A stretch of 10,845 nt of DNA from a virus. Lineage: Duplodnaviria; Heunggongvirae; Uroviricota; Caudoviricetes. The stretch is taken from IMG/VR virus record IMGVR_UViG_2531839579_000019. One strand, 5' to 3'. The notes beneath the pieces were generated by a model. The model was given only the letters and a program-made list of their open reading frames with translations. It was not told the origin of the DNA and did not search any database. The position numbers were made by a program, and so were the translations under genes. Below are positions 1-10,845 of the stretch, piece by piece. The number at the start of each line of letters is the position of its first letter. The stretch's first letter is position 1.

Positions 1-1
1 A

Positions 2-208
2 TTTTTATTAGCATCAGAAATTTCAGACAACTATGACAATCTTCCTGAGAAAGTATCCAAGCTTGTTGAAAACTATAAAGGATTTAGATTTAACTCAGAA
101 GCAGAGACAATCAGAAATTTATTACGCTATATAGTCAACACACGGAAATTAAGTGATTTCTCACAAGCACTTTTGAAGATTGAAGAGATAATAAATAATT
201 ACAAATAA
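2..208 (+). CDS. 3' end of an unknown AT-rich cargo gene (5'-truncated by the window edge); C-terminal 68 aa ...LLKIEEIINNYK, stop TAA at 206-208
   Basis: Frame open from the window start to TAA 206-208. Base composition is strongly AT-rich (about 30% GC by my count), unlike the GC-rich P4-like core next to it. Ends 18 bp before the cos sequence. No recognisable motif in the visible tail. Confidence 0.5.
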   Translation, partial: FLLASEISDNYDNLPEKVSKLVENYKGFRFNSEAETIRNLLRYIVNTRKLSDFSQALLKIEEIINNYK

Positions 209-226
209 TTTCGTTCCTAGCGCGCA

Positions 227-245
227 GTGCTTTCCCCGCCTCGCC
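227..245. other. cos: cos site: 19-nt P2/P4-type cohesive-end sequence
   Basis: Sequence gtgctttccccgcctcgcc is the exact reverse complement of GGCGAGGCGGGGAAAGCAC, which I recall as the P2/186/P4 cohesive end. It lies just beyond the psu stop, as in P4. Confidence 0.7.
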
Positions 246-348
246 CGCCCGCTTTGCGGGGCGGTTTTAATGCAGTTGCACTGACACGCTCAGACCGCGC
301 CGGGAATGGCGCGGTTTGCAGAAAATGAGGCAGGGAAACGCATGCAAA

Positions 349-379
349 GCCATGCACCTTATCGATGCATGGCTTTTTT
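349..379. terminator. Rho-independent terminator hairpin between convergent genes
   Basis: Perfect 8-bp stem gccatgca (349-356) / tgcatggc (366-373) with a 9-nt loop, followed by TTTTTT (374-379) on the plus strand. On the minus strand it follows the psu stop but has only a short T tract. Confidence 0.6.
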
Positions 380-409
380 CAGTAAAAACGGGCGGATTTT
401 CGGGGAATT

Positions 410-982
410 TTACACTGACTGACGTGATGCCAGTTGCGCACTTTTACGCGAAAAAATCATGTTCTGCGCAGGGGTGAATTTTTCACGGCTGTCATCCACC
501 GAAGCCACGTCAGGCCTGAATCCGATGGTCGTTAAAATGTCGCTATCCTGTGCGGAATAATTAATTTTTTCACCCTTCGCAAGCCAGGACAGAAGGGCTT
601 CACGCAGGGCATCTGTGGCACGCTGTATGGCACAGTTTCGGGCAATGGCCGTCAGCTCACTGTAGCCCATCAGCTCCGGTGCCAGTGCCGCCGCCAGTGC
701 TGTGCCGTGCTGCTGCATAAAATCATTCAGCCGGTCGCGGATGCTGATGTGCTGAACGGCTTCATGCGAACGAATATAACGACCGGCGGCCTGATTCACC
801 TGCCATTTTCTGACTTCGATAATATTGCGTAATTCGTCCAGGCGACTGACGTTTCTGCCTTCTCCTGACAGAAGCCGCAGATATTCCTGTTCGGCCGCTG
901 CCAGCTCATTTTTGCGTTGCAGCCATGCTGCTTTGTTATTCTGACAGGTGTCAAAGGCCTGCTGTAAGGCTGTGCTTTCCAT
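410..982 (-). CDS. psu: Psu, polarity suppression protein (190 aa)
   Basis: Intact 190-aa ORF starting MESTALQQAFDTCQNNKAAW; the length and N-terminus match my recollection of P4 Psu. It is the last gene of a sid-delta-psu operon and ends next to cos. Confidence 0.85.
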   Translation of the reverse strand: MESTALQQAFDTCQNNKAAWLQRKNELAAAEQEYLRLLSGEGRNVSRLDELRNIIEVRKWQVNQAAGRYIRSHEAVQHISIRDRLNDFMQQHGTALAAALAPELMGYSELTAIARNCAIQRATDALREALLSWLAKGEKINYSAQDSDILTTIGFRPDVASVDDSREKFTPAQNMIFSRKSAQLASRQSV

Positions 983-1055
983 CGTTATCTCTTTCTCATC
1001 ATGCTGAAGAATAAAAATACGGTGTGCGGCGACGGCCGGTGTTAACCGGCAGCCC

Positions 1056-1556
1056 TCATTCCAGACGCAGCGAATATGATTGTGTTTTTAACCGTACTGG
1101 CGGCAGTTCCTGTTTTTCATGCAGGCGTTCTGCCAGTTCGTCCGGCGTGACCGGGCGGACAATGAAACGGTTGATGGTCTGAAGCGTTTTAAACACCAGA
1201 CCACAGCCCGGATCCGTGCACACATAAAAACGCTCGGTGACTTCCTGAGACAGACGCCGCGATGTTCTTGACAGTGCAAGGCCTTTACATCTCCGACAAC
1301 AATATCCGGTAACAAGCATTCTTTTCGGGCGTTTCATACTGCCGGAGGCTGACGTCAGTGAATCGCGGTATCTCTGTTTGCCTGAAATGTATTCCATTCC
1401 TGAATCTTTACTGTCAGAGAAAAAGCTTTCACTCGCTTCAAATGTCGCAGAGCAATAAATATTCCGGCACTGTGCAATCATTATCTTGGTGCCATCGTCC
1501 ATGAAATGTGCGCGACGGGTGTGAGCAACATGTCCACACGACGGGCAGTAAATCAT
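1056..1556 (-). CDS. delta: Delta, Ogr/Delta-family zinc-finger late-gene activator (166 aa)
   Basis: Intact 166-aa ORF with the Ogr-type motif C-P-x-C-x-H...QC-x-N-x-x-CSATF (MIYCPSCGHVAHTRR...AQCRNIYCSATF) and a second Cys-rich half (CCRRC...CTDPGCG), consistent with P4 Delta as a fused Ogr-like dimer. Its ATG overlaps the sid stop (ATGA). Confidence 0.85.
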   Translation of the reverse strand: MIYCPSCGHVAHTRRAHFMDDGTKIMIAQCRNIYCSATFEASESFFSDSKDSGMEYISGKQRYRDSLTSASGSMKRPKRMLVTGYCCRRCKGLALSRTSRRLSQEVTERFYVCTDPGCGLVFKTLQTINRFIVRPVTPDELAERLHEKQELPPVRLKTQSYSLRLE

Positions 1557-2278
1557 GACAGCAGTCCTCTGGCCTTAAGCTCTGCTCCCTGCTGGTCTAT
1601 TTTGTCCTGCCACACCTTGCGCTGTGCCGGTGTGCCTGCCACCTCATAATCCATGTGCGGGAGTGTTGCCGCTGACAGTCCGGTCAGCCGGAGAACCGGC
1701 TCGCCGGTGAGGCTGATTTGCATCTGTTTAATTTTCTGTTCCAGCGATGATTTCACCTGCTGCATGACAGCCTTTTCCGGTGCGACGTAGCCCTGATGGC
1801 CGGTGGTGTTGGCGAGCGGATTTTCCTGTACCAGAATGCTCAGATGCATTGCCCGGACAAGCGCCTCACAGGTTTCATTCAGGGCGTGTTCCAGCTCATG
1901 CTCTGCATACAGACTCAGAGGTGATGATGTGCCTTCCGGTAGGCGGTGGCCGTGCTGTCACACGCCCCTTTCAGGCGTTCCGTTCAAATTCAGCACCACG
2001 GCCAGATTGTCATATTCCTGTACCAGCTCCCGGCGTGCCACGCGCTCAATGTGGCGCTGTTTCAGCTCGTCGCTCAGGACACCACCGGCTGCACGAAAGG
2101 CGTGCGCCAGTCTCAGCGTCTTTCCGTCGGCCTGCGCCAGCGCATTTTTTTCCTGCTCTGCCCGTTCAATGGCCGTACGGTCTCATCCATCAGGCGGGCG
2201 TTCTCAAGATGGCGGCTCTGGCTTTTCCAGTTGTGCCAGTGCGGGTTGCAGATATTCAGGGATGGTGTTGTCAGACAT
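1553..2278 (-). pseudogene. sid: sid (capsid size determination) homolog, interrupted by frameshifts
   Basis: ATG at 2278 is preceded by AGGAG, but the frame stops after 24 codons (TGA at plus 2204-2206). Protein-like sequence continues in alternating frames, with at least four frame changes between about 1914 and 2224 and a second in-frame TGA. The C-terminal 98 aa (1553-1849) is in the starting frame. The 726-nt span is close to the 244-codon P4 sid. Confidence 0.7.
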
Positions 2279-2312
2279 TTTCCGGCTCCTCGTCACTTCA
2301 GGTTAAGAAAAT

Positions 2313-2368
2313 TGTGACGTACACCGGACAACAACACGACGCATTGCAGATGTGCCAGCCCTGACACA
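2313..2368 (-). promoter_or_regulatory. Psid-type late promoter region with two Delta/Ogr-type TGT-N12-ACA dyads
   Basis: Perfect TGT-N12-ACA at 2313-2330 and 2351-2368, centred 43 and 81 bp upstream of the sid ATG and 38 bp apart. This matches the P2/P4 late-promoter arrangement with activator sites near -55 and about -18. Confidence 0.6.
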
Positions 2369-2447
2369 GGAGACTCATCCTCAGACCGGCAAGCCAGGAA
2401 AAGGTCGCAGGAAAAACCGGCTTACTGTTTGTTTTTTTATATTTTAC

Positions 2448-2551
2448 TGTTCACCTCTGTTCACCTTAAGAAAAAAGATAAGTAATACAGTAAGTTAAAG
2501 GGTGAACAATCGCAGTAATGACTGTTCACCGTCTGTTCACCACTGTTCACC
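2448..2551. repeat. ori-like iteron cluster (TGTTCACC octamers)
   Basis: Five direct copies of TGTTCACC (2448, 2458, 2523, 2534, 2544) and one inverted copy (GGTGAACA at 2501), in the divergent region between sid and the rightward operon. The same octamer recurs in the crr-like repeats about 4.8 kb away. Confidence 0.7.
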
Positions 2552-2710
2552 CGTTGATGGGCTTTTTGTGCTGTTTACTACTGTTTGTTTTTATTAATTC
2601 GCCTGAATGAATAAGAAGAAACGATTTGTATTTCACTATAAAAATTACGAATTGCTTTAAGTGGCTTTAAATGACTATATGGTGGAGATGAACAAAAAAC
2701 ACACAGCCAT

Positions 2711-2728
2711 TGTAAGGCTGCCGGAACA
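2711..2728 (+). promoter_or_regulatory. Candidate Delta-binding dyad of a PLL-type late promoter upstream of vis
   Basis: TGT-aaggctgccgga-ACA (TGT-N12-ACA) about 110 bp upstream of the vis ATG. A second, imperfect CTG-N12-ACA lies about 35 bp downstream. Single perfect dyad only, so weak. Confidence 0.35.
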
Positions 2729-2830
2729 AATCCCCCCTGTTGCGTCTGCTGAAAATATTCACAAAATAAAGCGCTACCCGAAGCCGGACGGACTTATCCG
2801 GTGCTGTATGGACATTAACGAGGTAGCCCG

Positions 2831-3097
2831 ATGCAAGCTGTTTTTTCTTCCCCGTCTCCCGCCCCTGTGACGCCACTGATGCCGCTGCCGGACATCACGC
2901 AGGAGCGTTTTTTACGTCTGCCGGAAGTGATGCACCTGTGCGGCCTGTCACGCTCGACCATCTACGAACTCATCCGTAAGGGGGAATTTCCGCCGCAGGT
3001 GAGTCTTGGCGGTAAAAATGTGGCCTGGCTGCACTCTGAAGTCACCGCATGGATGGCCGGACGCATTGCCGGACGCAAACGGGGGTACGACGCATGA
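2831..3097 (+). CDS. vis: Vis/orf88, AlpA-family helix-turn-helix regulator (88 aa)
   Basis: Intact 88-aa ORF with GAGG 6 nt upstream. Contains the AlpA-type HTH signature RLPEV...[14 protein letters not shown]. It is the first gene of the rightward operon, as for P4 orf88. Confidence 0.75.
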
Positions 3098-3132
3098 TGA
3101 TGCCCGCTCTGCAAAAACTCCCTTTTTCTGGC

Positions 3133-3162
3133 TTGCCTTTTTCCGGCATTTGCGGATATAGT
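3133..3162 (+). promoter_or_regulatory. Candidate sigma70 promoter (PLE-like) at the head of the immunity/early leader
   Basis: TTGCCT (3133-3138), 18-bp spacer, TATAGT (3157-3162), immediately downstream of vis where P4 places PLE. Hexamer match only. Confidence 0.4.
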
Positions 3163-3225
3163 TTTTCCGCTGCCGCAAAATCGGCAGCCGGGCGTAGGAA
3201 CCCGTGTAACTCGTCGGCGACATAT

Positions 3226-3247
3226 GACGCGCCATGCGTCTTTTTTT
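3226..3247 (+). terminator. Short hairpin plus T7 tract in the early leader (attenuator/timm-like terminator)
   Basis: Stem gacgc (3226-3230) / gcgtc (3236-3240), 5-nt loop, then TTTTTTT (3241-3247). Sits about 75 nt downstream of the predicted PLE start, where a termination-based immunity mechanism would act. Confidence 0.45.
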
Positions 3248-3675
3248 GTGTCGCAATCAACGCCACAGAGCACCAGATTATGGTGTGGCGTGTGGTTTGC
3301 CGTGCAGGTATGATCCTGTTCGCAATCGCATGTTATGCCACTGAGTCAATGGTAGCTCAGGCGGGGCAGCCTCCGGGCTGGCCGGTTTCCGATAACGCCG
3401 GTATTCTCACCCCCGTCTGGGCTATCGCCATCGAGCGTGAGAACTCCGGCGATAGCGTCATTTACGCTGTTATCGGAGACTGCCTTATGGCTACGACCCT
3501 TACCCCCTCACACCCTGAATTTGTCTTTGTGTTTGCGGCTGTCCGTCGCGCAGACCGTCATCCCCGTATCTGATGCTTCGCACCGTCGCCGGTGATGAAC
3601 GCAGCGCCCGCCGTTCCCTTGTCCGTGACTATGTGCTCTCCCTTGCTGCCCGTCTGCCGGTGGTGGAGGTGTCCC

Positions 3676-3963
3676 GTGCGTAATAAAAAAGCCCCTCAGA
3701 CCGTCTCAGCACGTCATGACGCCCGTGAACACCTCAGCATTGAGGCTTACCATAAGCTCAACCGCGCCAGCGCCGTATCCCAGTTTGTTGGGGGTGATTT
3801 GATTCACCGTGAACTCTCCGGCCTGCATCAGCTCTACATTCCGCATATTTTCAGCTACCTGAATGAAGATATTGATTTTGTGCTGAATGAGCTGAAAGCC
3901 AAAGGCCTGTGCCGCGATTTTCTCGCCCAGCAGAAAGACCGGGGAGACAGGACGCATGTTTGA
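3676..3963 (+). CDS. Epsilon-like small protein (95 aa from GTG 3676; frame is open from 3592)
   Basis: GTG at 3676 is preceded by GGAGG (3665-3669) and gives 95 aa. The stop overlaps the orf151 start. Start choice is uncertain; the alternative at 3592 has no Shine-Dalgarno sequence. Confidence 0.55.
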
Positions 3964-4411
3964 TTTTCCCCAGCCCGGTGAGATTTACCGTTCTGCCGGT
4001 TTTCCCGATGTGGCCGTGGTCGGCATTCTGGAAGACGGTATTCCGTGGGAAATGCCGTACCGCTGCCCGGACATTGTCTGGAACCCGTACCGCCGTAAAT
4101 TCAGTATCCTTGTGCGTATCCTCGCTGACGGGCGCACCACAGACATCCCGCTGGGGCGTTTTCTGCGGGAATTTACCTGTGACCGTCCTGACCTGTTTAA
4201 ACGCAGCCCCGTAAACCGGCATGCGGTACTGAAAGAAATGGCCGGAGACCCGGAATTACAGAAATGGCGGGAGAAATATCTGGATATTTACCCGCAGGAC
4301 ACTGTTCCGGTCAGCCGGGCAGCACCGGTGGCGCGGGAATGGCGGGAAATTCCCCGCACGGAGCCTGACCCGGAAACCACCCCGGATAACAGTTACCGCA
4401 ATTATCTGTAA
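3956..4411 (+). CDS. orf151-like protein (151 aa)
   Basis: Intact 151-aa ORF with GGAG upstream, overlapping the epsilon stop. Size and position match P4 orf151 between epsilon and alpha. Confidence 0.75.
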   Translation: MFDFPQPGEIYRSAGFPDVAVVGILEDGIPWEMPYRCPDIVWNPYRRKFSILVRILADGRTTDIPLGRFLREFTCDRPDLFKRSPVNRHAVLKEMAGDPELQKWREKYLDIYPQDTVPVSRAAPVAREWREIPRTEPDPETTPDNSYRNYL

Positions 4412-4546
4412 TTAAAAAACGACACCCGAAAAATTAAATGTGCGTATTCGCGCAGGGATACGCACGTCTTCAGGAGACGCAGATATGCCTTATCAGTTAA
4501 TGCAACCGGCACGGAATGCAGTCATCTGTCACAGGGAGGAAAGCAA

Positions 4547-4866
4547 ATGAAAACACCCTTACCGCCCGTCTTACGCGCTGCCCTTTACCGTCGCGCTGTC
4601 GCCTGTGCCTGGCTGACCGTGTGCGAACGTCAGCACCGCTACCCGCATCTCACCCTTGATCACTGGAGGCGGCCATCGCCGCTGAGCTGGAAGGCTTTTA
4701 TCTGCGCCAGCACGGTGAGGAAAAAGGGCGTCAGATAGCCTGTGCCCTGCTGGAAGATTTAATGGAATCCGGCCCCCTGAAGGCCGCGCCGTCGCTGTCC
4801 TTTCTCGGGCTGGTTGTGATGGATGAACTCTGTGCCCGTCACATAAAAGCGCCGGTACTGCACTGA
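4547..4866 (+). pseudogene. orf106-like small ORF upstream of alpha, with one apparent 1-nt frameshift
   Basis: ATG 4547 is preceded by GGGAGGA. The frame reads 63 aa, then protein-like sequence continues in another frame from about 4663 ([33 protein letters not shown]...) to TGA 4864-4866. Restoring one base near 4655-4665 would give a continuous 106-codon ORF. Confidence 0.5.
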
Positions 4867-4880
4867 AGGAGAACAACACC

Positions 4881-7210
4881 ATGAAAATGAACGTAACCGC
4901 CACCGTCAGCCATGCGCTCGGCCACTGGCCGCGTATTCTCCCGGCGCTGGGGATTCAGGTGCTGAAAAACCGTCATCAGCCCTGTCCGGTCTGTGGCGGG
5001 AGTGACCGCTTCCGTTTTGATGACAGGGAGGGGCGCGGCACCTGGTACTGCAATCAGTGTGGTGCCGGTGACGGCCTGAAACTGGTTGAAAAGGTGTTTG
5101 GTGTTTCCCCGTCCGACGCGGCCACAAAGGTGGCTGCCGTGACCGGCAGCCTGCCCCCGACTGACCCGGCAGTGACGGCTGCCGCCGGTGCTGAAACAGA
5201 CGCTGCCCGGAAGAACGCCGCCGCACTGGCACAAACCCTGATGGCGAAAACCCGTCCCGGAACCGGTAACGCCTACCTGACCCGCAAGGGCTTTCCCGGC
5301 CGGGAATGCCGGATGCTGACCGGCACACACAGAGCCGGTGGCGTGAGCTGGCGCCCGGTGACCTTGTGGTGCCACTGTATGACGACAGCGGCGAACTGGT
5401 TAACCTTCAGTTAATCAGTGCTGACGGCCGTAAGCGCACCCTGAAAGGCGGACAGGTCAGGGGCACCTGTCACACCCTTGAAGGACAGAATCAGGCCGGA
5501 AAACGTCTGTGGATAGCGGAGGGATACGCGACCGCACTTACCGTCATCACCTGACCGGTGAAACGGTGATGGTGGCGCTTTCTTCCGTGAACCTCCTTTC
5601 TCTGGCCAGCCTTGCCCGGCAGAAGCATCCGGCCTGTCAGATTGTCCTTGCCGCAGACCGTGACCTCAGCGGTGACGGCCAGAAAAAAGCCGCCGCAGCC
5701 GCAGATGCGTGTGAGGGCGTTGTTGCCCTGCCGCCGGTCTTCGGTGACTGGAATGATGCCTTCACGCAGTACGGCGGGGAGGCCACCCGTAAGGCCATTT
5801 ACGATGCCATCCGGCCACCGGCTGAAAGCCCGTTCGACACCATGAGCGAAGCAGAGTTTTCCGCCATGAGTACCAGCGAAAAGGCCATGCGTATCTATGA
5901 GCATTACGGCGAGGCGCTCGCGGTCGATGCCAACGGCCAGCTTCTGTCCCGTTATGAAAATGGTGTCTGGAAGGTGCTGCCGCCACAGGACTTTGCCCGG
6001 GATGTGGCCGGGCTGTTTCAGCGTCTGCGCGCGCCGTTCTCCTCCGGGAAGGTGGCCTCCGTGGTGGACACCCTGAAGCTGATTATTCCGCAGCAGGAAG
6101 CCCCCTCCCGCCGCCTGATTGGCTTTCGTAACGGCGTGCTCGACACGCAGAACGGCACGTTCCACCCGCACAGTCCGTCACACTGGATGCGCACCCTGTG
6201 CGATGTGGATTTCACCCCGCCGGTGGACGGTGAAACGCTGGAACCCACGCCCCCGCGTTCTGGGCTGGCTTGACCGTGCCGCCGGTGGCCGTGCGGAAAA
6301 ACGCGACGTGATTCTGGCCGCACTGTTTATGGTGCTGGCAAACCGCTACGACTGGCAGCTCTTTCTGGAGGTGACCGGTCCCGGCGGCAGCGGCAAAAGT
6401 ATCATGGCCGAAATAGCCACCCTGCTGGCCGGGGAGGATAACGCCACGTCGGCCACCATTGAGACGCTGGAATCCCCGCGTGAACGTGCCGCGTTAACTG
6501 GCTTCTCACTGATACGCCTGCCGGACCAGGAAAAATGGAGCGGCGACGGTGCCGGACTCAAGGCCATCACCGGCGGCGATGCGGTGTCCGTGGACCCGAA
6601 ATACCGGGATGCGTACTCCACGCATATCCCGGCGGTGATTCTGGCCGTGAACAATAACCCGATGCGCTTCACCGACCGCAGCGGCGGCGTGTCACGCCGG
6701 CGGGTGATTATTCACTTCCCGGAACAGATAGCCCCGCAGGAGCGCGACCCGCAGCTTAAGGACAAAATCACCCGCGAGCTGGCGGTCATCGTGCGTCACC
6801 TGATGCAGAAGTTCAGCGACCCGATGCTCGCCCGGTCACTGCTTCAGTCCCAGCAGAACTCAGACGAGGCGCTGAACATCAAACGGGATGCCGACCCGAC
6901 GTTTGATTTTATCGGCTATCTGGAAACCCTGCCGCAGACCAGCGGCATGTATATGGGGAACGCCAGTATCATCCCGCGTAATTACCGTAAATACCTCTAT
7001 CACGCCTATCTGGCCTACATGGAGGCAAACGGCTACCGGAATGTACTCAGTCTGAAAATGTTCGGGCTGGGGCTGCCGGTGATGCTGAAGGAATACGGAC
7101 TGAATTACGAGAAGCGCCATACCAAACAGGGGATACAGACCAACCTGACGCTGAAAGAGGAAAGCTACGGCGACTGGCTGCCAAAATGTGACGACCCTGC
7201 AACAGCCTGA
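4881..7210 (+). pseudogene. alpha: Alpha-type primase/helicase, split into four frame segments by three frameshifts
   Basis: AAGGAGA 8 nt upstream of ATG 4881. Zinc-binding primase N-terminus (CPVCGG...RF...WYCNQCG), a Toprim-like segment (5306-5554), and a helicase part with Walker A GPGGSGKS (6119-7210). Frame changes fall within 5306-5414, 5509-5554 and 6119-6273. Total span 2330 nt, close to the 777-codon P4 alpha. Confidence 0.8.
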
Positions 7211-7226
7211 CCCTCATAACTCATCT

Positions 7227-7251
7227 GACCGGCATCTGCCGGTCTTTTTTT
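7227..7251 (+). terminator. Rho-independent terminator after alpha
   Basis: Stem gaccggc (7227-7233) / gccggtc (7238-7244), loop atct, then TTTTTTT (7245-7251), 17 nt after the alpha stop. Confidence 0.75.
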
Positions 7252-7267
7252 ATCCCTGAATCCCCCG

Positions 7268-7566
7268 AAGGTGAACAATCCACTGTTCACCCTTCACCGT
7301 ATATTCACCCGTTATCACACTGAAATTAAAAGAGAAAAACGAAAGGTGAACAGTGTGAACAATCAAATCAAAAAAAACTTTTTTCTTCCTGAGTGATTTC
7401 AGTGCGGAGGATTAATCACCGGTATGAGTCACACCGGCAGAATGCCGGAGGTGAAGAATCGAATGTTCACCCTTCACCCATTATTCACCACCTATCACTC
7501 TGAAATAAAAGGAGAAAACAGAAAGGTGAACAGTGTGAACAGTTCTTTCGAAAAAAAATTTTTTAT
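7268..7566. repeat. crr-like cis replication region: two ~117-bp direct repeats carrying the iterons
   Basis: Unit 1 (about 7268-7384) and unit 2 (about 7448-7566) are imperfect direct repeats with a 180-bp period. Each carries several TGTTCACC/GGTGAACA motifs and ends in an A-run/T-run. Matches the two-repeat crr downstream of alpha in P4. Confidence 0.7.
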
Positions 7567-7757
7567 GTGGATAAAAGATGCACTGGTTTGGATCCGAGCT
7601 ACGGATCCAAACTTACTGATTAAAAATGATTTAACTTTCCGATTTATTGATGGGCTGAAAATAGATTGGTCAGAAAAACAGTGGGGGCACAAAAGGGGGC
7701 ATATTTCATTGTTGTGTTTTATTATTTGTTTTTTATCATTAACTTATTTTGATGTTT

Positions 7758-7776
7758 GAGTCCGGCCTTCGCACCA
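7758..7776 (+). other. attP: att core resembling the 3' end of tRNA-Leu (leuX), with no tRNA body upstream
   Basis: gagtccggccttcgcacca matches the leuX 3' end GAGTCCGGCCTTCGGCACCA as I recall it, except for one missing G. The sequence upstream (7700-7757) is AT-rich and not tRNA-like. Lies 190 bp upstream of int. Confidence 0.55.
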
Positions 7777-7792
7777 TATAAAGTTTTTTTCA

Positions 7793-7876
7793 AGTCTACT
7801 CACGTCTACTTTAGTCCATAAAAACAGTAAATTAAGCAGGTTTTTTGCTTTTCTTAGTCTGTCCACGTCTACTTAC
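7793..7876. promoter_or_regulatory. Direct repeats between att core and int (candidate integrase arm-type sites / int promoter region)
   Basis: agtctactcacgtctacttt (7793-7812) and agtctgtccacgtctactta (7857-7876) match at 17 of 20 positions, 64 bp apart. Function is inferred from position only. Confidence 0.35.
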
Positions 7877-7965
7877 TTCTATCCACATATACCAACGAAT
7901 GATGGTATAACTGGTGGTATCTTCGGTTCGATTGATTTTGATACCAACAGCGGAGGTATCAACTG

Positions 7966-9216
7966 ATGGCACTTACTGATATCAAAGTTAGGACTACCAA
8001 GCCCTCCGACAAACCTTTCAAACTTACAGATGGGCAGGGTATGCACCTGCTGATCAACCCCAATGGTTCAAAATACTGGCGACTCCAATACCGTTTCGAT
8101 GGCAAACAGAAAGTTTTAGCATTGGGAGTTTATCCAATAGTCTCTCTTGGTGAAGCTCGCAGGAAACGAGATGAGGCCAAAAAGTTGGTATCTGATGGTA
8201 TCGATCCTTCCGAGAAGAAAAAAGCAGACAAGATCGAGCAGAGCGAAGCTCTGACATTCGAGGCTGTCGCAAGGGACTGGCATACTGCCTGTAAAAGGAA
8301 ATGGTCTGATTCCCACAGCGAGAGAGTTCTAAAAAGCATGGAAGATGGTCTCTTTACTGCTATTGGTAAAAGAAAAATATCCGAACTTAATACCAGAGAT
8401 CTTCTTGCCCCTATCAAGGCTGTTGAAGCTTCCGGGCGATTGGAAGTTGCTTCCCGATTACAGCAAAGAACAACGGCGGTAATGAGATATGCTGTCCAGA
8501 ACGGGCTGATAGATTACAACCCTGCTCAGGAGATGGCAGGAGCTATTGCGGTAGCTAAAAGAGTCCACAGGCCAGCTTTGCCATTCGAACGATTCTCAGA
8601 ACTTTTAGAACGAATTGATAGTTTCAAGGGTAGAAAACTCACGAAGTTAGCCGTGAAACTCACATTGCTCATTTTCATTCGTTCAAGTGAACTTAGGTTT
8701 GCTCGTTGGTCAGAGATAGATTTCGACAATGCCATGTGGACTATCCCTGGGGAACGTGAGCCATTGCCAGGGGTCAAACATTCTCATCGAGGCTCAAAAA
8801 TGAAGACCCCACACCTCGTGCCGTTAAGTCGCCAGGCTATAGAACTCCTCAAAGCTATCAAAGAAATCAGCGGTGAATGTGAACTTGTGTTCATTGGTGA
8901 TCATGATTTTAGAAAGCCTATGAGTGAAAACACGGTAAACAAGGCTTTAAGGTCTATGGGCTACGACACTACGGTTGAAGTATGTGGACATGGTTTTCGT
9001 GCGATGGCATGTAGTGCGTTGATCGAATCGGGAAAATGGTCAAGGGATGCTGTTGAACGGCAGATGAGCCACCAAGAGCGAAACTCCGTTCGTGCTGCCT
9101 ACATTCATAAAGCAGAACACCTTGATGAAAGAAGGCTTATGTTGCAGTGGTGGGCTGATTACCTTAATGCCTTGAAAGATAGGTTTATCAGTCCCTTTGA
9201 TTTTACAACAAAGTAG
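7966..9216 (+). CDS. int: P4-type tyrosine integrase (416 aa)
   Basis: GGAGG 9 nt upstream of ATG 7966. P4-family N-terminus (MALTDIKVRTTKP...YWRLQYRF...), catalytic-region H-x-x-R (HGFRAMA) and a tyrosine in RAAYIHKAEHLDERR. Intact. GC is visibly lower than the psu-alpha core. Confidence 0.9.
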   Translation: MALTDIKVRTTKPSDKPFKLTDGQGMHLLINPNGSKYWRLQYRFDGKQKVLALGVYPIVSLGEARRKRDEAKKLVSDGIDPSEKKKADKIEQSEALTFEAVARDWHTACKRKWSDSHSERVLKSMEDGLFTAIGKRKISELNTRDLLAPIKAVEASGRLEVASRLQQRTTAVMRYAVQNGLIDYNPAQEMAGAIAVAKRVHRPALPFERFSELLERIDSFKGRKLTKLAVKLTLLIFIRSSELRFARWSEIDFDNAMWTIPGEREPLPGVKHSHRGSKMKTPHLVPLSRQAIELLKAIKEISGECELVFIGDHDFRKPMSENTVNKALRSMGYDTTVEVCGHGFRAMACSALIESGKWSRDAVERQMSHQERNSVRAAYIHKAEHLDERRLMLQWWADYLNALKDRFISPFDFTTK

Positions 9217-9303
9217 CTTGATCAACGATTAACTATCCACTGGCATAGCCGTGTGATATGATTACAATGGCTATATTTTTAATTTAAATTTAATAGGTAA
9301 AAA

Positions 9304-10443
9304 ATGTCCACAATTAACCCCGCAATTTTTTCTTTTTTCTCTGGTTCAGGATTTCTTGATCTTGGATTTGAAAAAAATGGTTATGAAGTGGTTTTCGTGA
9401 ATGAATACCATGCTCCGTTTATGGATGCATATAAACATTCGAGGAAAAAATTAAATATAGCACCACCTCGTTTTGGGTATGCAGAGTGCAGTATTGAAGA
9501 TGTAGAACATGAAAAAATTAAGTCTTCTATGCTTCAACTTAAAAATGAGGGGCGATTGACTGGATTTATTGGTGGTCCACCATGCCCGGATTTCTCTGTA
9601 GCGGGTAAAAATAAAGGTCGAGATGGTGAAAACGGTCGGCTTTCACAAAGCTATATTGATATCATTCTTGAAATGAAACCAGATTTCTTTCTTTTTGAGA
9701 ATGTTAAAGGTCTATACCGTACCAGTAAACATAGGGAATTTTTTGACCATTTAAAAACTCAATTAGAATCGGTTGGTTATTGTTTGCATGAAAAACTAAT
9801 AAATTCTATTGAATATGGTGCTCCTCAAGATAGGCAACGAATCATATTGATTGGTTTCCTTGATGAAAAATATGCAAGCCAATTCAATTGGGGGCAAAGA
9901 GTCTACCCTGAAAGAACTGCATTTGAATATAAATGGCCGACGACAAACCAATTTTCAGAAAACACTTCTGTTATAAAACCAAAGGGTATCCCAGAAGAGT
10001 TAACAGTAGAGCATTGGTTCAAGAAAAACCAGGTTGATAATCATCCAAATGCAAAGCATGTATTCGCGGCAAGAGCAGGGCTTGCGAGGTTTTTGACTGT
10101 CGAAGAAGGGGATGATAGTAAAAAATCCTATAAAAGGTTGCATAGATGGAGATTTTCACCAACTGCTGCTTACGGTAATAATGAGGTACATTTACATCCT
10201 TATAAACCAAGAAGAATTACTGTTGCCGAAGCATTAGCAATTCAGTCTTTACCAAAAGAATTTGAATTACCTGCTTATATGACTCTGTCTAATATGTTTA
10301 AAACTGTCGGTAACGGTGTACCCTACTTAGCAGCGGCCGGTATTGCCAAATCTATTATAGAGCATTTAGGAATCGAATATGAGAGTAACTGCGGCGAACT
10401 TAGCACAGGCGATTGCCAATCTACCAAGAAACACGCAGTTTAA
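9304..10443 (+). CDS. DNA (cytosine-5)-methyltransferase (379 aa), intact
   Basis: Ordered C5-methyltransferase motifs: motif I-like FSGSGF, motif IV GGPPCPDFSVAG, motif VI FENVKGL, motif VIII QDRQR, motif X TVGNGVP. AT-rich; first gene after int. Confidence 0.85.
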   Translation: MSTINPAIFSFFSGSGFLDLGFEKNGYEVVFVNEYHAPFMDAYKHSRKKLNIAPPRFGYAECSIEDVEHEKIKSSMLQLKNEGRLTGFIGGPPCPDFSVAGKNKGRDGENGRLSQSYIDIILEMKPDFFLFENVKGLYRTSKHREFFDHLKTQLESVGYCLHEKLINSIEYGAPQDRQRIILIGFLDEKYASQFNWGQRVYPERTAFEYKWPTTNQFSENTSVIKPKGIPEELTVEHWFKKNQVDNHPNAKHVFAARAGLARFLTVEEGDDSKKSYKRLHRWRFSPTAAYGNNEVHLHPYKPRRITVAEALAIQSLPKEFELPAYMTLSNMFKTVGNGVPYLAAAGIAKSIIEHLGIEYESNCGELSTGDCQSTKKHAV

Positions 10444-10453
10444 TTATTTAAAT

Positions 10454-10845
10454 GTGCGAAATTCGGGAAGAATCATTGTAACGAATGTTCAACTTCCCGA
10501 AGGCCCAATAGAATTCAAAAGATTCGATCCAAAAAAGGGTGAGACACTGCATAGTTCTAAATCGGAAAGCATCTCCACACAAATGATGTGGAGATTGGCT
10601 AATGCTTTACAGGAAGATGTCCCTGTCAATTTGGATCGTATTTTTGGTGCAAGCTATAATACACGTGCTGTTCTCGAAAGCCTTTTGGCCCATACTCCTG
10701 AGTTTTATTGGTGTAAGCTTGATCGCCTTGAGGTAATGAACACTCAGAAAAATATTAAAAAAGGTCACAAGCACCTTATTTATAGACCAAATGACCCACA
10801 TGAAAATGGTGTAGCAATAGAACATACTACTAATGTTATAATTTC
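10454..10845 (+). CDS. Unknown ORF immediately downstream of the methyltransferase (3'-truncated by the window edge); possible functional partner
   Basis: Frame open from 10442 to the window end, 130 codons visible. Candidate starts are GTG 10454 (10 nt after the methyltransferase stop) or ATG 10583; neither has a clear Shine-Dalgarno sequence. Same strand and composition as the methyltransferase. No diagnostic motif in the visible part. Confidence 0.45.
   Translation, partial: MRNSGRIIVTNVQLPEGPIEFKRFDPKKGETLHSSKSESISTQMMWRLANALQEDVPVNLDRIFGASYNTRAVLESLLAHTPEFYWCKLDRLEVMNTQKNIKKGHKHLIYRPNDPHENGVAIEHTTNVII

What the first reader, a model, noticed from the sequence alone, without database searches (positions are those of the whole stretch)
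9217..10845. AT-rich cargo downstream of int: methyltransferase plus a tightly linked unknown gene in the satellite's variable slot
Right after an intact P4-type integrase, the composition drops sharply and an intact C5-cytosine methyltransferase is followed 10 nt later by an unknown ORF that runs off the window. In P4 this int-to-cos/psu position holds accessory genes, and in P4-like satellites it is a known hotspot for anti-phage cargo. The pair could be a restriction-modification system, a modification-dependent system, or a methyltransferase-containing system of a new type. The partner's visible 130 aa show no motif I can recognise, so the function is open.
Basis: partly seen in the sequence, partly recalled or inferred. 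Interest (0 to 1): 0.8.

Follow-up and report, generated by a model that had tools for sequence, protein, structure and literature searches.

The report
NmeDI-type restriction-modification gene pair
The methyltransferase and its "unknown" neighbour are an ordinary two-gene restriction-modification system of the already characterised NmeDI family, and it sits on a separate genomic island lying next to the P4-like satellite, not in the satellite's defence slot.

Summary
The sequence features are real: a P4-family integrase (7966-9216), a GC drop, an intact C5 cytosine methyltransferase (9304-10443) and an ORF that runs off the window. The partner ORF starts at ATG 10379 and overlaps the methyltransferase by 65 nt; it does not start 10 nt downstream.

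The full 358-aa partner was recovered from identical E. coli loci.
- It matches a PADLOC Type II restriction-enzyme model end to end (E 8.7e-124).
- Its homologues carry Pfam PF27126 "NmeDI_C".
- It is 51% identical over its full length to the restriction enzyme of the Neisseria pheS-vsr-M-R-pheT NmeDI locus. The methyltransferases are 62% identical.
- The methyltransferase-then-nuclease pairing is kept in 78 of 80 genomes from many phyla.
- The predicted C-terminal domain resembles FokI/BspD6I-type cleavage domains.

R.NmeDI is a characterised enzyme that cuts at (12/7)RCCGGY(7/12).

The context claim fails. The satellite's cos site is at 227-245, so its psu-int hotspot lies at the other end of the window. 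The satellite ends at a leuX att core (7757-7776). The same int-M-R module follows an intact leuX with no satellite in other strains.

Verdict: a new member of a known kind, of low interest.

The parts
7757..7776 (+). att core: a degenerate copy of the 3' end of tRNA-Leu (leuX), GAGTCCGGCCTTCG-CACCA with one base missing. It marks the right end of the P4-like satellite and the left end of the island that carries int-M-R.
   Evidence: Fuzzy match to the leuX 3' end. The window junction is identical to strain 504237, and the sequence to its right is identical to what follows the intact leuX in strain 120899. Many of the listed satellite matches in other E. coli genomes stop at about 7776.
7966..9216 (+). 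P4-family tyrosine integrase of the leuX island. It is not the satellite's own integrase.
   Evidence: Pfam Arm-DNA-bind_3, Phage_int_M and Phage_integrase. It is 58% identical to the satellite's own integrase in strain 504237. It is found directly after leuX without any satellite in strains 120899 and IAI1.
9304..10443 (+). C5 cytosine DNA methyltransferase (379 aa), the M subunit of an NmeDI-type R-M system.
   Evidence: PF00145 5.1e-54 over the full profile. PADLOC MTase_II PDLC03355 1e-163. 62% identical to the methyltransferase of the Neisseria pheS-vsr-M-R-pheT locus. Target-recognition region 57% identical, and its C-terminal half 74%.
10379..10845 (+). First 155 codons of the R.NmeDI-family restriction endonuclease. 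The full gene encodes 358 aa and continues 610 nt, stop codon included, beyond the window. It overlaps the methyltransferase gene by 65 nt.
   Evidence: Start and frame. Full gene from 100% identical loci. PADLOC REase_II PDLC03534 8.7e-124, residues 2-356 against profile positions 5-350 of 351. Homologues carry PF27126 NmeDI_C. 51% identity to the Neisseria enzyme.
227..245 (-). Context only: the exact 19-nt P2/P4 cos sequence. It places the satellite's real psu-int hotspot to the left of 227.
   Evidence: Exact match; 0.01 expected by chance. psu lies at 410-982 on the minus strand. Hotspot definition from PMC9122126.

Best explanation
The pair is a two-gene Type II restriction-modification operon of the NmeDI family.

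- Modification (inferred from homology): the C5 methyltransferase, encoded first, methylates a cytosine in its target on host DNA. The target is most likely RCCGGY/RCCGGB, as for M.NmeDI.
- Expression (inferred from the gene layout): the restriction gene overlaps the methyltransferase gene by 65 nt, so it is probably co-transcribed and translationally coupled.
- Nuclease architecture: the encoded 358-aa nuclease has an N-terminal domain, inferred to be the DNA-recognition domain, and a C-terminal PD-(D/E)xK cleavage domain of the FokI/BspD6I type.
- Cleavage (inferred from homology): by analogy with R.NmeDI it would need only Mg2+, work as a tetramer on two sites, and cut unmethylated DNA at a fixed distance on both sides of the palindromic site (12/7 ... 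7/12). This would excise a short fragment and so restrict incoming phage or plasmid DNA.
- Location (shown here): the operon is the integrase-proximal cargo of a leuX-integrating mobilisable island (int-M-R-DUF6387-AlpA ... two tyrosine recombinases ... relaxase). In this genome the island lies in tandem behind a P4-like satellite.

Shown here: homology, gene order, conservation of the pairing, fold and context. Inferred only: recognition sequence, cleavage geometry and in vivo activity.
For: Restriction enzyme identity:
- Full-length match to PADLOC Type II REase model PDLC03534, E 8.7e-124.
- 1639 homologues at E <= 0.001. All 120 listed carry Pfam PF27126, and several are named 'restriction endonuclease'.
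- PF27126 is named NmeDI_C.
- A member of the same 90% cluster is named 'type II restriction enzyme NmeDIP'.

Comparison with the Neisseria locus:
- Neisseria viridiae locus L077 is pheS-vsr-M-R-pheT. Its R gene is 1056 bp (351 aa) and overlaps M by 29 nt, about 9 codons.
- That matches the published NmeDI description (PMC2095814; PMC7973814).
- The E. coli R is 51% identical and 71% similar to it over the whole length, E 8e-139. The N-terminal domain is 53% identical and the C-terminal domain 59%.
- The methyltransferases are 62% identical.

Conservation of the pairing:
- In 78 of 80 genome loci from many phyla, a 52-99% identical methyltransferase homologue lies directly upstream on the same strand. 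The other two loci are cut at a contig end.

Structure:
- AlphaFold model with mean pLDDT 84.6.
- D250 is invariant, and E265 and E267 nearly so, across representatives down to about 28% identity.

Context.
Against: - No sequence of the authentic R.NmeDI (AJ238948) was available. The comparison used the syntenic locus of a commensal Neisseria, plus the Pfam family name and a source annotation.
- 51% (R) and 62% (M) identity do not guarantee the same recognition sequence or cut positions.
- The local Pfam and NCBIfam copies gave no hit for the nuclease. No solved structure matches by sequence. Foldseek found nothing at E <= 0.001.
- The catalytic triad reads D...ExE rather than D...ExK. BamHI has the same variant (my own knowledge).
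- No vsr gene accompanies the E. coli pair, unlike the Neisseria locus.
- Only 155 of the 358 codons lie in the window. The rest is taken from loci that are 100% identical over 9217-10845.
Confidence: 0.85

Rival explanations
1. One reading: the pair is accessory cargo in the variable int-to-cos slot of the P4-like satellite. It could be a methyltransferase-containing defence system of a new type.
For: - The window does carry a P4-like satellite: psu, delta, C4/CI RNA and an alpha-type primase.
- The integrase is of the P4 family.
- The region is AT-rich, like horizontally acquired cargo.
Against: - cos is at 227-245 next to psu, so the hotspot is at the other end of the window.
- The satellite ends at the att core at 7757-7776.
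- The closest genome (98.5% identical, and 100% from 7409 on) has a separate satellite integrase next to leuX. It also has 15 kb or more of island genes after the R gene.
- The module occurs without any satellite and also behind an unrelated island.
- The partner is a known restriction enzyme family.
Confidence: 0.03
2. It is an NmeDI-family R-M pair, but with a recognition sequence or cut geometry different from (12/7)RCCGGY(7/12).
For: - The N-terminal domain of the nuclease, inferred to be the recognition domain, is only 53% identical to the Neisseria enzyme.
- The first half of the methyltransferase target-recognition region is poorly conserved; the whole region is 57% identical.
- Specificity changes at this level of divergence are common among Type II systems (general knowledge).
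Against: - The C-terminal half of the target-recognition region is 74% identical.
- Both nuclease domains align without large indels, apart from one 10-residue gap and the linker.
- PMC2095814 reports that REBASE predicted RCCGGY or RCCGGB for two more distant homologues, at 61-72% similarity.
Confidence: 0.25
3. The pair works mainly as a selfish stabilisation (post-segregational killing) module that keeps the leuX island in the chromosome. In this reading phage defence is not its main role, or the nuclease is inactive and the methyltransferase acts alone.
For: - It sits at the integrase-proximal edge of a mobilisable island and travels with it between Escherichia and Kosakonia at 98-99% identity.
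- Stabilisation of mobile elements by Type II R-M systems is established (general knowledge).
Against: - The nuclease ORF is intact in all 13 E. coli genomes that carry it.
- The M-R pairing is conserved across phyla in many unrelated contexts, including next to other defence genes such as GmrSD.
- The NmeDI system reduced lambda vir plating 1000-fold (PMC2095814).
- The two roles are not mutually exclusive.
Confidence: 0.1

Closest known systems
NmeDI restriction-modification system of Neisseria meningitidis (M.NmeDI C5 methyltransferase + R.NmeDI; Kwiatek & Piekarowicz 2007, PMC2095814)
   Same: - Gene order M then R on one strand, with overlapping reading frames.
- Nuclease of nearly the same length (358 vs 351 aa), alignable end to end at 51% identity to the Neisseria-locus enzyme.
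- Methyltransferase 62% identical.
- Both are covered by the same Pfam family (NmeDI_C).
- Two-domain nuclease with a FokI-like C-terminal cleavage domain, which fits NmeDI's description as a 'symmetric Type IIS' enzyme (PMC4081073).
   Different: - No vsr gene next to the pair.
- The overlap is 65 nt rather than about 27-29 nt.
- The methyltransferase lacks the roughly 50-residue N-terminal extension of the Neisseria protein (379 vs 419 aa).
- It is carried on a leuX-integrating island in Enterobacteriaceae instead of between pheS and pheT.
- Recognition sequence and cut positions are untested.
Defence cargo of the P4-like satellite hotspot between psu and int, next to cos (Rousset et al. 2022, PMC9122126)
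   Same: - AT-rich horizontally acquired defence genes near a P4-family integrase at the leuX locus.
- From my own memory, not checked here, the EcoO109I R-M genes were reported inside a P4-like prophage.
   Different: - This pair is not between the satellite's psu and int and is not next to cos.
- It lies beyond the satellite's right att core, on a different element with its own integrase.
Cfr10I / BsrFI / NgoMIV-type enzymes (orthodox RCCGGY or GCCGGC cutters)
   Same: - The same or an overlapping likely recognition sequence, and a PD-(D/E)xK fold.
   Different: - No sequence similarity. The PDB sequence search found nothing, and PMC2095814 reports none between R.NmeDI and Cfr10I or BsrFI.
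- Those enzymes cut inside the site, whereas NmeDI cuts outside it on both sides.

Membership tests
NmeDI-type Type II R-M system | Nuclease homologous to R.NmeDI over its full length | tested here: met
   51% identity and 71% similarity over residues 2-356 to the 351-aa nuclease of the Neisseria pheS-vsr-M-R-pheT locus. Homologues carry PF27126 NmeDI_C. A cluster member is named NmeDIP. Caveat: the deposited R.NmeDI sequence itself was not available, so a syntenic Neisseria orthologue stood in for it.
NmeDI-type Type II R-M system | Cognate C5 cytosine methyltransferase encoded immediately upstream on the same strand, with overlapping genes | tested here: met
   65-nt overlap in the window. 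The methyltransferase is 62% identical to the Neisseria one. The arrangement is kept in 78 of 80 loci.
NmeDI-type Type II R-M system | C-terminal nuclease domain separate from the recognition domain (Type IIS-like architecture) | tested here: met
NmeDI-type Type II R-M system | Recognises RCCGGY and cuts 12/7 nt away on both sides; Mg2+ only; tetramer; needs two sites | not testable with these tools
   These are biochemical properties reported for R.NmeDI in PMC2095814. Only homology supports them here.
NmeDI-type Type II R-M system | Associated Vsr mismatch endonuclease (present in the Neisseria locus, not essential to the family) | tested here: not met
   No Vsr homologue flanks the enterobacterial loci L008-L012, and none is annotated next to the pair in L001-L004. 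Vsr is present in only about 19 of the 80 loci, so it is an optional accessory.
P4-like satellite hotspot cargo | Located between the satellite's psu and its int, adjacent to cos | tested here: not met
   cos at 227-245 and psu at 410-982. The finding lies beyond alpha and the att core at 7757-7776. Hotspot definition from PMC9122126.
P4-like satellite hotspot cargo | The adjacent integrase is the satellite's own | tested here: not met
   Strain 504237 has a different integrase (58% identity) next to leuX at the satellite's left end. The int-M-R module occurs at leuX without a satellite and behind an unrelated island.
C5 cytosine DNA methyltransferase (PF00145) | Full-length match, with catalytic motifs I, IV (PC), VI (ENV), VIII (QxRxR) and X (GNxVP) | tested here: met
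   PF00145 5.1e-54, residues 8-352 against profile positions 3-323 of 324. TIGR00675 6.3e-48. The motifs can be read in the translation.

The most novel reading that the evidence does not exclude
The enterobacterial branch of the NmeDI family has drifted to a new recognition sequence or cleavage geometry. Alternatively, its position at the junction of a tandem satellite-plus-island array at leuX has a functional consequence. For example, it could protect or restrict the neighbouring P4-like satellite, which carries 39 RCCGGY sites in 7.7 kb.
Probability: 0.15. Interest if true: 0.35.

Novelty: new member of a known kind. Interest (0 to 1): 0.15.

Why it matters
It matters little. It adds an uncharacterised enterobacterial member to a restriction enzyme family whose prototype has an unusual property: it recognises a palindromic site and cuts on both sides of it. 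The family is widespread, with a conserved M-R pair in many phyla.

The practical lesson concerns annotation. At leuX, P4-like satellites and other integrase-bearing islands stack in tandem. An integrase that follows the satellite's primase therefore belongs to the next element. The satellite's defence hotspot has to be located from cos and psu, not from the nearest integrase.

Tried and rejected
Searches that found nothing for the nuclease:
- Local Pfam and NCBIfam scans of the 155-aa fragment and of the full protein gave no hit. The family model PF27126 is newer than the local copy.
- The PDB sequence search gave no hit at E <= 10.
- A literature search for 'PF27126' found no papers.

Other dead ends:
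The closer alignment A1 worked.
- I asked whether DUF6387, AlpA or the integrase travel with the R-M pair. They do so only in the near-identical Kosakonia island. They are absent from the 74%-identical enterobacterial homologues and from all other loci, so they are not part of the system.
- I looked for avoidance of RCCGGY in the island part. One site is observed and about one is expected for 3 kb at 39% GC (sites; the expectation is my own arithmetic), so this is uninformative.
- The promoter and terminator scan of the operon found no more sites than in shuffled sequence. The -35/-10-like site at window 9240-9268 is therefore not evidence.
- No tRNA gene is present in the window. Only the 20-nt att core remains.

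Full report
**Observation**

The window's right end holds three features.
- A 416-aa integrase lies at 7966-9216. It has the Arm-DNA-bind_3, Phage_int_M and Phage_integrase domains, the architecture of P4-family integrases.
- A 379-aa protein lies at 9304-10443. It matches the C5 cytosine methyltransferase family PF00145 over the entire profile (5.1e-54), and the canonical motifs can be read in its translation.
- GC content falls from about 0.45 in int, and about 0.6 in the primase gene, to 0.35-0.39.

A further ORF on the same strand runs off the window. Its frame is closed by a TAG at 10367-10369, and its first start is ATG 10379, preceded by AGGA. It therefore overlaps the methyltransferase gene by 65 nt. 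RefSeq annotators chose ATG 10379, and the N-terminal residues it adds are conserved in homologues.

**Recovering the rest of the partner gene**

The stretch 9217-10845 is present at 98.8-100% identity in 13 complete E. coli chromosomes. In these the partner gene encodes 358 aa. The 155 residues visible in the window are identical to it.

**What the partner is**

- The local Pfam and NCBIfam copies and a PDB sequence search found nothing.
- The PADLOC library matched a Type II restriction enzyme model end to end: PDLC03534, E 8.7e-124, residues 2-356 against profile positions 5-350 of 351.
- A search of 5.8 billion proteins found 1639 homologues. All 120 listed carry Pfam PF27126, and several are named 'restriction endonuclease'.
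- The context look-ups name that family 'NmeDI_C'.
- One member of the same 90%-identity cluster is annotated 'type II restriction enzyme NmeDIP'.

R.NmeDI of Neisseria meningitidis is a characterised enzyme (PMC2095814).
- It is 351 aa long, encoded by a 1056-bp gene whose first nine codons overlap the upstream C5 methyltransferase gene.
- It recognises RCCGGY and cuts 12/7 nt away on both sides, releasing a 25-bp fragment.
- It needs only Mg2+, is a tetramer and prefers two sites in cis.
- Together with M.NmeDI it lowers lambda vir plating 1000-fold.

A review calls it a 'symmetric Type IIS enzyme' (PMC4081073). In meningococci the system, with a vsr gene, lies between pheS and pheT (PMC7973814).

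**Direct comparison with the Neisseria locus**

A scan of species-representative genomes returned a Neisseria viridiae locus (L077). Its order is pheS - vsr - C5 methyltransferase (419 aa) - a 351-aa protein from a 1056-bp gene that overlaps the methyltransferase by 29 nt - pheT. This matches the published layout.
- The E. coli nuclease is 51% identical and 71% similar to that protein over its whole length, E 8e-139.
- The N-terminal domain is 53% identical and the C-terminal domain 59%.
- The methyltransferases are 62% identical.
- The target-recognition region is 57% identical, and its C-terminal half 74%.

I did not have the deposited R.NmeDI sequence, so this orthologue is a proxy for it.

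**Conservation of the pair**

In 78 of the 80 loci returned, a 52-99% identical homologue of the methyltransferase lies directly upstream of the nuclease gene on the same strand. Its alignment ends within about 60 nt of the nuclease start. The two exceptions are cut at a contig end. The loci come from many lineages, among them Proteobacteria, Bacteroidota, Bacillota, cyanobacteria, Chloroflexia, Verrucomicrobia and Elusimicrobia. A Vsr homologue is adjacent in about 19 of them, but not in the enterobacterial ones. The integrase, DUF6387 and AlpA genes that flank the pair in E. coli accompany it only in a near-identical Kosakonia island. The functional unit is therefore the two genes.

**Fold**

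An AlphaFold model built on 43 homologues has mean pLDDT 84.6. It shows two domains joined by a low-confidence linker at 157-164.
- Foldseek against the PDB gave nothing significant.
- This is a PD-(D/E)xK nuclease, closest to the cleavage domains of enzymes that cut outside their site.
- D250 is invariant, and E265 and E267 nearly so, in representatives down to about 28% identity. The D...ExE pattern is the variant also seen in BamHI (my own knowledge).
- More distant relatives share only residues about 175-335, attached to other N-termini. That fits a modular recognition-plus-cleavage design.

**Context: the 'satellite slot' claim**

The window does contain a P4-like satellite:
- psu at 410-982, on the minus strand;
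- delta at 1056-1556, on the minus strand;
- C4/CI-type antisense RNA at 3345-3432;
- an alpha-type primase at 4881-7210.

The exact 19-nt P2/P4 cos sequence is at 227-245. The P4 defence hotspot is defined as the cos-adjacent interval between psu and int (PMC9122126). For this satellite the hotspot therefore lies to the left of 227.

At 7757-7776 there is a degenerate copy of the 3' end of tRNA-Leu leuX. To its right, the window is identical to the sequence that follows the intact leuX gene in strain 120899. Many of the listed satellite matches in other E. coli genomes stop at about 7776.

Four comparisons show that the int-M-R module is a separate element.
- Strain 504237 is 98.5% identical to the window overall and 100% identical from 7409 on. 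Its order is leuX, the satellite's own integrase, two cargo genes, psu ... alpha, the att core, and then int-M-R-DUF6387-AlpA, two tyrosine recombinases and an IS-disrupted relaxase.
- Strains 120899 and IAI1 have the same int-M-R island directly after leuX with no satellite.
- Strain CUVET19-1937 has it behind an unrelated island.
- Strain FORC_042 shows the canonical satellite, with a Kiwa-like gene between int and psu, followed after the core by yet another integrase.

The two integrases in strain 504237 are 58% identical. The integrase at 7966 and the R-M pair thus belong to a leuX-integrating mobilisable island stacked behind the satellite.

**Mechanism**

- Shown: the methyltransferase is encoded first, and the nuclease gene overlaps its 3' end.
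- Inferred from homology: the methyltransferase places m5C in RCCGGY/RCCGGB-type sites. The nuclease binds unmethylated sites through its N-terminal domain and cuts at a distance on both sides with its FokI-like domain, restricting incoming DNA.
- The recognition sequence could differ from that of NmeDI. I put this at about 25%.
- A role in stabilising the island is possible and is not exclusive of defence.

**Novelty and verdict**

The pair is a new, uncharacterised member of a known and experimentally described R-M family. Current defence-finder models already recognise it. Interest is low.

Noticed in passing
window 1-245: The true P4 hotspot of this satellite begins here. An AT-rich ORF on the plus strand ends at about 205, just before the exact cos 19-mer (227-245, minus strand). 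Window 1-219 does not match strain 504237 but does match other satellites such as the one in NZ_LR883965, so this satellite carries different hotspot cargo, mostly beyond the left edge of the window.
   Followed up: partly
window 1918-2221 and 5354, 5544, 6241, 6263: Relative to strain 504237 the window has nine single-base deletions in the sid region and four in the alpha primase gene. These split alpha into three ORFs (4881-5414, 5509-6273, 6119-7210). All 164 differences between the two sequences lie before 7409. The satellite is either decaying, or this part of the assembly carries indel errors.
   Followed up: partly
window 2500-3500: Half of all differences from strain 504237 (81 of 164) fall in this 1-kb stretch around the immunity region. 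The stretch also holds the Rfam matches isrK (3169-3246), c4-a1b1 (3156-3208) and C4 antisense RNA (3345-3432).
   Followed up: no
window 7265-7384 and 7445-7564: Two 120-nt direct repeats, 82% identical and 180 nt apart, lie just after the primase gene. They are rich in GGTGAACA/TGTTCACC motifs and look like P4 ori/crr-type iterons for the alpha protein. That resemblance is from my own knowledge and was not tested.
   Followed up: partly
window 1-7776 versus 7777-10845: The satellite part has 39 RCCGGY sites. The island part has one, at 10336 inside the M/R overlap. The low island count is about what its 39% GC predicts, and I did not work out an expectation for the satellite part, whose GC reaches about 0.6. 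If the R-M pair has NmeDI specificity, the neighbouring satellite would be a dense target unless methylated.
   Followed up: partly
L001 14381-25629; L003 16381-28638; L004 16381-29629: The rest of the leuX island carries a DUF6387 protein, an AlpA-type regulator, two adjacent tyrosine recombinases followed by a 534-624-aa protein of unknown function, and a MOB relaxase (IS100/IS66-disrupted in strains 120899 and 504237). The distal cargo varies: an Abi-family protein in IAI1 and Ser/Thr kinases in CUVET19-1937. It looks like an integrative mobilisable element with its own variable defence cargo.
   Followed up: no
L008 (Kosakonia cowanii, 1588-6732): The same int-M-R-DUF6387-AlpA module is present at 98-99% protein identity for int, M, R and DUF6387, and 84-90% for AlpA and the next gene. 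This indicates recent transfer of the island between enterobacterial genera.
   Followed up: no
L005, L006, L007: In Bacillus cereus and Roseobacter the NmeDI-type pair sits beside GmrSD-like (PF03235) genes, and in L005 beside a MutH-family gene. These are typical defence-island neighbourhoods.
   Followed up: no
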